Translations under genes and position numbers: made by a program | Assembly (NCBI GenBank): GCA_030248215.1 | Contig: JASANG010003910.1 | Coordinates: 186,001 to 250,000 of the forward strand | Direction: 5' to 3' | DNA: 64,000 nt | DNA from: Enoplolaimus lenunculus | Lineage: Eukaryota | Shown: positions 21,801-24,800 of the stretch, piece after piece | How the letters are laid out: every line of letters begins with the position of its first letter | Numbering within the stretch: position 1 is the first letter of the stretch | The notes under the pieces: generated by a model | The model's input: the letters and a program-made list of their open reading frames with translations, nothing else | Databases searched by the model: none | What the model was told of the DNA's origin: nothing

Positions 21801-24800
21801 ATGAAACCAAGTGTTGGAGCATTAATGATATGTACAGCCGTTCGATTTGGACATACGCATGCTTGACGGCGAAATTTGTAGCATGCAGAGAAAACAGTCA
21901 TTTAGTCGGCTTGTGAGATGAGCAGATAAGTAACTATTTTACTATTGTTAATTTCCAACTAACTATCTTTGCTGTATTGGCTGAAAATAAAAATGGCCGT
22001 TTGTGTTATAGATTTGGCCCGATTGTTTTCAGAGGCAACTATGTCACGTACGAGGATGGTGATTTGACGCGGCCTGTGGTCGAAGTGCGAGAATGGAAAA
22101 ATTATGATTTTAATTTTGACAACGTATTGTTCGCGCAAATGTCACTGTTTGTGGTGTCGACTTTTGAAGGATGGCCTGAGTAAGTATTTTTTCGCTTTTT
22201 GTTTAAAGTTCGCGGCGCAGTAAATAAGGGGGGCCGCAGGGGGCCGGTCAACTTTATTTTTGAAGTAAGGAGACTTTATATAGCGTAAAAGATAAACGAA
22301 GAATAGTAAGGTCCATCACCCTTATTATTAAAATTACGTTTGGCTTCAGGTTCGTAAGATTTCTTCCACACTTAGATAGCGTATCCACAGTGTTCGTTTA
22401 CCCCTTGTTATCATATCAGTTGCTGCGTCCTGTGTAAAGCGTTTTTGTTTTTGAAATGAATTATTATTACGAAATCAAGGTTCCAGCTCCAACCGGAAAA
22501 ATCGTATGAATCGGAATTAGAAGTCAAGCCGGAATTTTAAACTTTAACATTTTTACCTTTTTTTAATTCTTTCGAATGGTAAAACCAGACGTTGCTATTT
22601 TGTTTTCACAGTTTTTGCTTGGTTTGATTTTTCATCTTCAAAGTACAGTACTTGAAATCGGGAACTTCTCTCAGGCTAACTCTGAATTAAAATTTTGCCG
22701 GAAGTCGGGGTCTATATTCAGCTGGAAGCCAGTGCGAAACTGTGGCGACTGCAGCTTTTATGTAGTGGTTTCAAGTTTGAGAGCAGTGCACCACAAACAT
22801 AATTATTGCTACCACAAACGTATTAATTTTAGTTGAGAATTTTTAGAGCTACAGTCACAGACCGATCGTGAACAGAGTTTCGGTTTAGAAATCAATCGCG
22901 ATTGGACTTAATTCTGTCTCTGTGACCGTAATTACACACTTTACCTGTCGGTTATCGTTAATATTGTTTGAATGCATTAACTTTTCTACCTTTGATGAAC
23001 TTAAATTTGAATAAATTTTTGTCATAGCGCAGCACGGCTAACAGAAAATTGTTGTTTGGCCGATCATTTTCAAAGTAAAAAGATTTCTGATATTTTGGAT
23101 GCACTTTCTGTCAGTCATGTTTAGACGGGTGTTTTACTGGGTATTCGCAGTTATTCTCACGAACATCCGGTGTCTGCTCATAAATGGTCCGATTTTGAAA
23201 ATTTCTCATATTTGAGCTTCTCGTGACCTTTTTTGATTTATGCCACGTCTAAATTTGAGTTTTTGAGAAATACAATTCTTAAAAATTTTTTTGAAAAGTC
23301 AGACAATTTAATATGTGTATCATTCGACGGAATTTGTGTGGCTGAGTGGATTTGTACTCTTGAATTTTTAGAATTTGACCATTTTTCAGTGAATGCCGGC
23401 ATTGGCGAGATATAACTAAAAAGCGCTGTTTAGTTTTACAATAATTTATTTGTAATCAGTAACTGATCGAACAAGGATAAAACTATTGGTTTTTAGTTTG
23501 CTCTATGTAGCGATTGACTCAAACAGAGAAGAACACGGTCCGATATATAATTATCGGCAAGGTTTGTTGTAATGGAATGCAACTGCAAATTTCGCCATTG
23601 CTAATTTTAGAATTGCATTTTAATCCCATACAAACGCACTACGTATCTTTTGAGCGGTTGTACGCTCAGTTTCGCCACCGTTCTAATGTTAGTTTTTTTC
23701 TTTTTTTTCGATTCAACCTTTTTGCTAACCTTCCTTGTACCATTTTATTATAATAATGAACCATGGCGTTACTTTTTTTCTTTCACTGCTGCTTTCCTCA
23801 GCTGGAGTTCAAGCAATGTATGTGTGCGTTAAATCTGAGCTGTTTCTATCCTTTGCTTATAACTTAATATTTCCCAAGTATAAAACACTAACAGTCGGGG
23901 TTGCAACAAACAACATTACGCAAAATGCGAAGAACAGATTTTAATTTTTGAGCAAAAATAAATGGCATCCAGTATTTTCGATCCTTTATACAGCAGCATT
24001 TGCAGGTTTTTATTCCGGGAATGATTCACCTTATTGTTAAGGATGTGATAGATTATTTTATAGCCGGTACAAGTGCTACTTGTTTTGTTTCTTGAGACGT
24101 TTCGGGAACGGACATATTATTATCTGCCAATGCTGCATTGTAGTGGTATTTTGCTCAAAAATTTAAAGTCGGTGTTAGCGAGATGTAAAACCTCAGGCTG
24201 GTTGTAGCAATGCATTCCTCCAGGTACCACTTTACTTCACTAACAGCGTTTTCCTCCCTCATGATGGGTGATCTCCTGTTGTACAGTTTCCCAACTTTTA
24301 CGCTTGAAGCTATGATTAGGCAAAGGCTTAGGCTTATGTAGGTAAGCCTATTTCTAACCTAAACTTACGCCTGAACGTCAACCAAAGCCTAAGCCTATAG
24401 CTTAAATGTGGGGGAAAGTGTACAAAAGCCCGGATCTCAGGATCTTAAACGGGGCGTATACAACCGGTGATATATCTTCCCAAAATTTCCGGAATGATTT
24501 GAAGAAGGCCAAAGATAAAAACTGTCTTGTTCACTACTCTCGCTCGCAACAAACTTTTCGATATTGTCAGCCCCTTCCGACATAAAACCCAGGGGAAATT
24601 TTACAAGGCATTCAAGTCCTTCGTATTAACAAAGATGTATATATGCAAATATCACTAATACAGTTTCTGATTAGTGTTGCTATATTGTAAGTCTATCATA
24701 AACACGGTATTTTTCAGAATTCTGTACACTGCAATGAATTCTTACGGTATCGGGCACGGTCCTGTACACAATCATCGTGAAGGTAATTTTTTAAATATTA

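What the first reader, a model, noticed from the sequence alone, without database searches (positions are those of the whole stretch)
23497..24782. Mutually exclusive exon pair swaps the domain III outer pore directly after the filter glutamate
Seen: two 65-nt exons with identical phases (2/1) and canonical splice sites follow ...STFEGWP. Copy a encodes [22 protein letters not shown]; copy b encodes [22 protein letters not shown]. Because 65 is not a multiple of 3, including both or neither shifts the frame, so exactly one must be used. Copy b replaces the conserved Asp of AIDS with Asn, loses the EE pair and carries three His. Established: vertebrate Cav1.2 mutually exclusive exons are 8/8a, 21/22 and 31/32, not this segment. 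Pore or turret exon switches are known to change ion selectivity in invertebrate Cav3 (12a/12b) and NALCN. Inference: this is a splicing switch tuning Ca2+ permeation, H+/Zn2+ block or toxin/drug binding of a nematode L-type channel. I do not recall it described for egl-19.
Basis: partly seen in the sequence, partly recalled or inferred. Interest (0 to 1): 0.9.

Follow-up and report, generated by a model that had tools for sequence, protein, structure and literature searches.

The report
Swappable outer-pore exon in worm Cav1
The L-type calcium channel gene of what is likely an early-branching roundworm carries two old duplicate versions of the short exon for the outer pore of domain III, only one of which fits the reading frame at a time; the second version lacks the loop's negative charges and is predicted to tune current size and block rather than change which ion passes.

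Summary
Two 65-nt exons (23497-23561, 24718-24782) have canonical splice sites and the same phases, lie on one raw-data unitig, and give a premature stop if both or neither are used. Exon b looks like a selected coding exon: codon positions 1/2/3 match exon a at 11/18/7 of 21, the flanks no longer align, and its splice sites score like constitutive ones. No RNA run was available, so its use is not shown. The gene is a Cav1 with an intact EEEE filter, grouping with nematodes. The pair was not seen in 77 metagenome loci, 68 annotated isoform proteins, the top protein hits or 10 literature searches. What is unusual in b is the loss of a near-invariant Glu and a loop with no acidic residue (1-5 in 114 homologues). 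Best reading: a lineage-restricted splice switch that tunes outer-vestibule charge, not Ca/Na selectivity. A second cluster of three alternative exons lies in domain IV.

The parts
22033..22179 (+). Constitutive exon: end of domain III extracellular loop, P1 helix, filter Glu, GWP; ends in phase 2 (GA) of the +4 codon
23497..23561 (+). Exon a (65 nt): conventional P2 helix, P2-S6 loop and first S6 residues; +4 residue Asp; 3 acidic residues in loop positions 7-13
24718..24782 (+). Exon b (65 nt): diverged duplicate; +4 residue Glu; no acidic residue in loop positions 7-13; near-invariant Glu replaced by Ile
26614..26750 (+). Constitutive IIIS6 exon (phase 1 acceptor); same boundaries in a second Cav1 paralog in the same runs
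28444..28554 (+). Domain IV S1-S2 loop + S2, alternative copy 1 (111 nt, phase 0/0, weak splice sites)
32852..32959 (+). Domain IV S1-S2 loop + S2, alternative copy 2 (108 nt, phase 0/0)
33627..33737 (+). Domain IV S1-S2 loop + S2, alternative copy 3 (111 nt, phase 0/0)
3688..45545 (+). Mapped part of the host gene: four-domain Cav1 (EGL-19-like) alpha-1 subunit, IS2 to just past the IQ domain

Best explanation
Exons a and b are an old tandem duplicate of the exon for the domain III P2 helix and P2-S6 loop of a Cav1 channel, only one of which keeps the reading frame, and they are likely spliced as alternatives, with exon b predicted to give a still calcium-selective channel whose outer mouth is less negative, so that it would tune conductance and block by protons and polyvalent cations rather than switch ions. 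Shown: the duplicate, the frame logic, coding constraint on b, the unchanged filter, and the charge-free loop. Inferred: (1) an intron gained after this segment in this lineage cut out a 65-nt exon, which then duplicated; (2) both-included and both-skipped transcripts are removed by nonsense-mediated decay, since the 1,156-nt intron between a and b is too long for steric exclusion; (3) choice is regulated by tissue or stage; (4) the electrostatic effect on current.
For: Frame logic. Coding constraint between a and b: pN 0.34 against pS 0.71, dN/dS about 0.2 with dS near saturation; 6 of 9 shared residues use different codons; flanks unalignable. Neutral simulations reached b's family-profile score in 0 of 100,000 runs and 0 of 200,000 when only its 13 first/second-position differences were scattered at random. 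Splice sites of b score 9.4/8.4 bits, inside the range of 27 constitutive exons (4.1-14.4 and 4.3-11.8), and rank 2 of 208 AGs and 3 of 287 GTs between the flanking exons. 10 of b's 12 changes from a occur at the same position in other Cav1s, so the fold is probably kept. Filter motifs of all four domains are in constitutive exons. The loop has 0 acidic residues in b against 1-5 in 114 distinct protein segments. Reviews state that charges above the filter mainly affect conductance and blocker affinity and matter less for selectivity (PMC4436565, passages; PMC10120453, passages). The intron after the segment is absent from 77 of 77 metagenome loci that show the segment but present in a second Cav1 paralog in the same runs.
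Against: No RNA evidence for either junction. No orthologue of b was found: the nearest segment shares 12 of 22 residues, so conservation across species is not shown. Selection is inferred from 21 codons in one genome, and the direct position-1 versus position-2 test is marginal (10 vs 3, p = 0.046); it records past constraint, not present use. b scores below every homologue on the family profile (36.8 against 42.3-73.7). The lost Glu is kept in 111 of 114 segments, which could mean a structural role, not an electrostatic one. The structure model is weak (pLDDT 60, pTM 0.29) and gives no side-chain orientation.
Confidence: 0.55

Rival explanations
1. Exon b is used, but it changes gating, inactivation or drug/toxin sensitivity by repacking the P2 helix and loop against neighbouring parts of domains III and IV; the charge loss is secondary.
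For: b changes three buried-type or near-invariant positions (Leu>Ile, Ile>Met, Glu>Ile) and adds two Gly. Mutating the III-IV interface near the filter enhanced voltage-dependent inactivation in Cav1.3 (PMC10542529, abstract only). A peptide blocker contacts P2 helices and loops of repeats III and IV in Cav1.2 (PMC10761187, passages).
Against: The conserved Trp at +2 lies in the constitutive exon. Most substitutions are natural Cav1 variants. No functional data.
Confidence: 0.2
2. Exon b was once functional but is now silent or rare, or makes a non-conducting channel.
For: No RNA holder; no orthologue; profile score below all homologues and a near-invariant Glu lost.
Against: Exact 65-nt length, open frame and splice sites scoring above those of exon a; strong codon-position signal.
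Confidence: 0.15
3. Exon b is a true selectivity switch that lets Na+ pass, like Cav3 exon 12a or the NALCN filter exons, useful in an animal without Nav channels.
For: Cav3 selectivity can be switched from a loop outside the filter, and nematodes lack Nav genes (PMC10120453, passages; PMC4436565, passages). b has the least acidic loop among 114 segments.
Against: EEEE and the domain II +1 Asp are constitutive; +4 is acidic in both forms and is acidic in only 32 of 114 homologues anyway; b adds no Lys or Arg, whereas the Cav3 switch works through a Lys next to the domain II Asp.
Confidence: 0.1

Closest known systems
Tandem duplicated, mutually exclusive exons of Cav channels (human CACNA1C/D three events, Drosophila Ca-alpha1D two, cacophony three; PMC9741552 section 16)
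   Same: Duplicated homologous exons of equal phase substituted in a Cav alpha-1 subunit.
   Different: Different segment. In the insect and crustacean isoform sets held here the swaps are in the II-III linker and IIIS5, among others, and none is in this segment. Which segments the two Drosophila events cover I could not read from text (figure not held); vertebrate exon numbers 8/8a, 21/22, 31/32 are recalled, not checked.
Invertebrate Cav3 exons 12a/12b (PMC4436565, PMC10120453, passages)
   Same: Mutually exclusive exons for an extracellular pore loop that leave the filter residues unchanged; present in nematodes.
   Different: Cav3, domain II, S5-P1 loop before the filter, works through Cys pattern and a Lys at the domain II Asp, conserved across protostomes, effect measured. 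Here: Cav1, domain III, P2-S6 after the filter, no Cys or Lys, one genome, untested.
NALCN exons 15 and 31 (PMC4436565, passages; PMC3557258, listing only)
   Same: Alternative exons in the pore of a four-domain channel, one in domain III.
   Different: They swap the filter residue itself (EEEE, EKEE, EEKE); here the filter Glu is constitutive.
C. elegans egl-19 isoforms a, b, c (PMC10514701, passages)
   Same: Nematode Cav1; 76% identity over the aligned part.
   Different: Its isoforms differ at the C-terminus only; no pore exon pair is described.

Membership tests
Cav1 (L-type) alpha-1 subunit | Four domains with EEEE filter and Asp at domain II +1 | tested here: met
   Spliced translation shows the four filter motifs with Glu and domain II ED.
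Cav1 (L-type) alpha-1 subunit | Closer to Cav1 than to Cav2/Cav3; IQ domain | tested here: met
   75-77% to named nematode Cav1s against about 39-51% to unnamed Cav2-like representatives (Cav2 label from recalled motifs); PF08763 hit.
Cav1 (L-type) alpha-1 subunit | Dihydropyridine-sensitive, Ca2+-selective current | not testable with these tools
   Needs recordings.
egl-19 one-to-one orthologue in a nematode | Branches within the egl-19 clade | tested here: inconclusive
   Quick tree: joins 14 nematode-clade rows (SH-aLRT 100) but outside Trichinella/Trichuris + Chromadorea (99); no Cav2 root; composition flagged. Short-region tree unresolved. A second paralog exists.
Mutually exclusive tandem duplicated exons | Adjacent homologous exons, same length and phase, canonical sites | tested here: met
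Mutually exclusive tandem duplicated exons | Both or neither is not productive | tested here: met
   Premature stops in both cases.
Mutually exclusive tandem duplicated exons | Each exon seen in transcripts, one at a time | not testable with these tools
   No RNA holder listed.
Mutually exclusive tandem duplicated exons | Both copies conserved in related species | tested here: inconclusive
   No close relative among 80 loci or the protein hits.
NALCN-type filter switch | Alternative exon changes the filter residue | tested here: not met
   Filter Glu is in constitutive exon 22033-22179.
Cav3 12a/12b-type turret switch | Domain II S5-P1 loop exons differing in Cys and a Lys | tested here: not met
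   Domain III, after the filter; neither copy has Cys or Lys.
Cav3 12a/12b-type turret switch | Measured change in Na+/Ca2+ permeability | not testable with these tools
   Needs recordings.

The most novel reading that the evidence does not exclude
An L-type channel whose permeation is set by splicing: exon b strips every acidic residue from the domain III outer loop and lets the EEEE channel carry substantial Na+ current or escape cation block, and with the three domain IV voltage-sensor exons one gene makes six channels in a lineage without Nav channels.
Probability: 0.12. Interest if true: 0.85.

Novelty: new variant of a known kind. Interest (0 to 1): 0.52.

Why it matters
No Cav1 with an alternative pore-loop exon turned up in the searches run here. 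If b is expressed, evolution has supplied a tolerated swap of the domain III P2-S6 segment that removes a Glu kept in 111 of 114 homologues. Grafting the two segments into a well-expressed Cav1 would test directly what the outer-vestibule charges of domain III do for conductance, block and inactivation. It also shows that splicing diversity in early-branching nematode Cav1 genes (2 x 3 exon choices plus a paralog) is missed by C. elegans. The limits: one genome, no RNA, probably a modest effect.

Tried and rejected
Assembly duplication: rejected, one unitig spans both exons with 0 differences. RNA check: no RNA holder listed; this is no evidence either way. Own genome not held. Polymorphism in the second sample X3: coverage of the two exons too thin to use. 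RNA docking/selector structure: 60 inverted repeats in 22180-26613, none standing out near the exons; no comparative data, so inconclusive. Clustering hides isoforms and the lists are dominated by well-annotated taxa, so this is weak absence. A Romanomermis fragment (P0333) shares the E-ILY start and Asn with b but did not group with the window gene. AlphaFold model of a homologous a-type fragment: too weak for contacts; isoform b was not folded because it is not a contiguous window sequence. Two older Drosophila papers (ids recalled) are not held. Earlier findings of this scan: none returned. In the all-exon duplicate scan 2 of 35 exons (15203, 15840) were translated in the wrong frame and so were not screened. 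The careful tree did not finish; the quick tree was used.

Full report
OBSERVATION. Using both or neither gives a premature stop. In raw-data contigs one unitig covers 21600-25979 with no difference in runs X1 and X2 (one sample), so the pair is in the DNA. No RNA run was listed and no whole genome is held; splicing itself was not observed.

THE GENE. tBLASTn with a nematode Cav1 maps exons from 3.7 to 45.5 kb. The modelled exons translate without stops and show Glu in all four filter motifs and Asp at +1 in domain II; the IQ domain is present. Identity to named nematode Cav1s is 75-77%. In a quick tree of 26 rows (Cav1 only, careful search unfinished) the gene joins the 14 nematode-clade rows but branches outside Trichinella/Trichuris plus Chromadorea; a short-region tree is unresolved. 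So: an early-branching nematode, a second paralog, or a sister lineage. The same runs hold a second Cav1 copy at genome depth (35.5 against about 37-42 in X1), with 22 differences over 145 nt and the same IIIS6 exon boundaries.

IS EXON b REAL? a and b share 37/65 nt and 9/21 residues. Codon positions 1, 2 and 3 are identical at 11, 18 and 7 of 21; pN is 0.34 and pS 0.71 (dN/dS about 0.2, dS near saturation); the 200-nt flanks align no better than shuffles. The duplication is therefore old, and the coding frame was under constraint. Neutral mutation of a to the same distance reached b's family-profile score in 0 of 100,000 runs; scattering only b's 13 first- and second-position differences at random did so in 0 of 200,000. 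The position-1 versus position-2 test alone is marginal (p = 0.046). Against a matrix from 27 constitutive exons, b's acceptor and donor score 9.4 and 8.4 bits and a's 7.4 and 7.5; b's rank 2 of 208 and 3 of 287 candidate sites between the flanking exons. Against this: b scores 36.8 on the family profile, below all homologues (42.3-73.7), and all of this is 21 codons in one genome.

WHAT CHANGES. By alignment to solved structures the filter Glu is rabbit Cav1.1 E1014 and the exon covers 1018-1039. A low-confidence model of a homologous fragment (pLDDT 60) places these in the P2 helix, the P2-S6 loop and the first turn of S6. The split codon at +4, the outer-ring position, is Asp with a and Glu with b; it is acidic in only 32 of 114 distinct protein segments. 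One His is shared with a, and 8 of 114 segments have three. Ten of b's 12 changes from a are residues that other Cav1s have at the same place (that set is 78 protein and 36 locus segments, the latter picked by a pattern that required Asp at position 7). Two are not seen elsewhere: Glu at the last position, and Ile for the Glu at 1029, which 111 of 114 keep. The loop (positions 7-13) has no acidic residue in b, three in a, and 1-5 in 114 distinct protein segments chosen without that requirement. This charge-free, Gly-rich loop is the real peculiarity.

DISTRIBUTION. Of 80 metagenome loci from other animals (best 80 of 228, many near-duplicates, 38 distinct segments), 77 show the segment, none twice; 49 also show the upstream exon. 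In 76 the segment runs on in frame into S6 by pattern and in L067 by eye, so the intron that makes a 65-nt exon is absent there, while an intron shortly after the filter motif is common (39 of 49). Thirteen isoform or near-relative sets (68 proteins: insects, crustaceans, Trichinella, Trichuris, C. elegans, Parascaris, unnamed) show swaps in the II-III linker, IIIS5 and elsewhere, none in this segment (only blocks of 8 or more residues were printed). The 150 best of 5580 representatives held no b-like segment; the nearest match to b is 12 of 22. No close relative of the organism was in any of these sets, so conservation of b is untested, not refuted. Inferred history: intron gain after the segment, shared with the paralog, then duplication of the freed exon.

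MECHANISM. The 1,156-nt intron between a and b is too long for steric exclusion (established knowledge of mutually exclusive splicing). No convincing RNA pairing stood out among 60 inverted repeats. Frame-based decay of both/neither transcripts is the simplest enforcement (inference). For function, reviews place selectivity in the filter ring and the domain II +1 Asp, and give charges further out a role in conductance and blocker affinity (PMC4436565, passages; PMC10120453, passages). Both determinants are constitutive here and b adds no Lys, unlike Cav3 exon 12a. I commit to b giving a Ca2+-selective channel with a less negative outer mouth (0.55). Rivals: repacking that alters inactivation or drug/toxin binding (0.2; PMC10542529 abstract; PMC10761187 passages), a silent or non-conducting b (0.15), a true selectivity switch (0.1).

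PRIOR DESCRIPTION. Ten full-text searches (open-access PMC and bioRxiv only, listings read) showed no paper on this pair. C. elegans egl-19 isoforms differ at the C-terminus (PMC10514701, passages). Drosophila Ca-alpha1D has two tandem-exon events (PMC9741552, passages, section 16 and a supplement look-up), one being exons 15/16 (PMC4174434, passages); the text seen does not say which protein segments, and the figure is not held, so a fly event here is not formally excluded, though other insects swap elsewhere. Subscription papers were not searched. The scan's earlier findings returned nothing.

SECOND CLUSTER. Three homologous phase-0 exons for the domain IV S1-S2 loop and S2 lie at 28444-28554, 32852-32959 and 33627-33737; all are open, with second codon positions best conserved. 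Among 33 exons screened in the right frame these two clusters were the only duplicates.

VERDICT. A real, apparently undescribed alternative-exon pair at a new place in a channel family where such pairs are common. Observation confirmed, interpretation partly supported, function untested. New variant of a known kind; interest 0.52.

Noticed in passing
window 28444-28554, 32852-32959, 33627-33737 (+): Three homologous exons for the domain IV S1-S2 loop and S2 helix (111/108/111 nt, phase 0/0, all open), a likely second mutually exclusive cluster; frame does not enforce exclusivity here, and copy 1 has weak splice sites. No swap of this segment in the 13 isoform sets compared.
   Followed up: partly
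laid on window 26608-26752 (runs X1, X2): A second Cav1 copy at genome depth, 22 differences in 145 nt (the 12 listed all at third codon positions), with the same exon boundaries. Whether it also has two pore exons is unknown.
   Followed up: partly
window about 25930-26370 and 26950-27030; similar text at 400-1100, 53800-54380, 61000-61300: A very high-copy repeat element with terminal inverted repeats (arms 25929-25972 and 26329-26372) sits in the intron after exon b; summed contig depth in the hundreds of thousands. Looks like a non-autonomous DNA transposon.
   Followed up: no
protein P0333 (Romanomermis culicivorax, UniRef): Divergent clade I nematode Cav1 fragment with only one acidic residue in the same loop and a start like exon b; long branch, not grouped with the window gene.
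   Followed up: partly
proteins P0205/P0292 (Nesidiocoris); P0192/P0193, P0199/P0276, P0243/P0245: Arthropod Cav1 isoforms swap homologous blocks in IIIS5 and in the II-III linker, apparently other tandem-exon events.
   Followed up: no
window 58869-59987 (+): 373-codon open frame with an Asn-rich stretch, probably the long last exon of the channel's C-terminal tail; no Pfam hit above cut-off.
   Followed up: no
loci L002-L061 (many): Several unnamed metagenome hosts carry several divergent Cav1 segment types, some with G-x-G or His-rich loops resembling parts of exon b, as separate loci.
   Followed up: no
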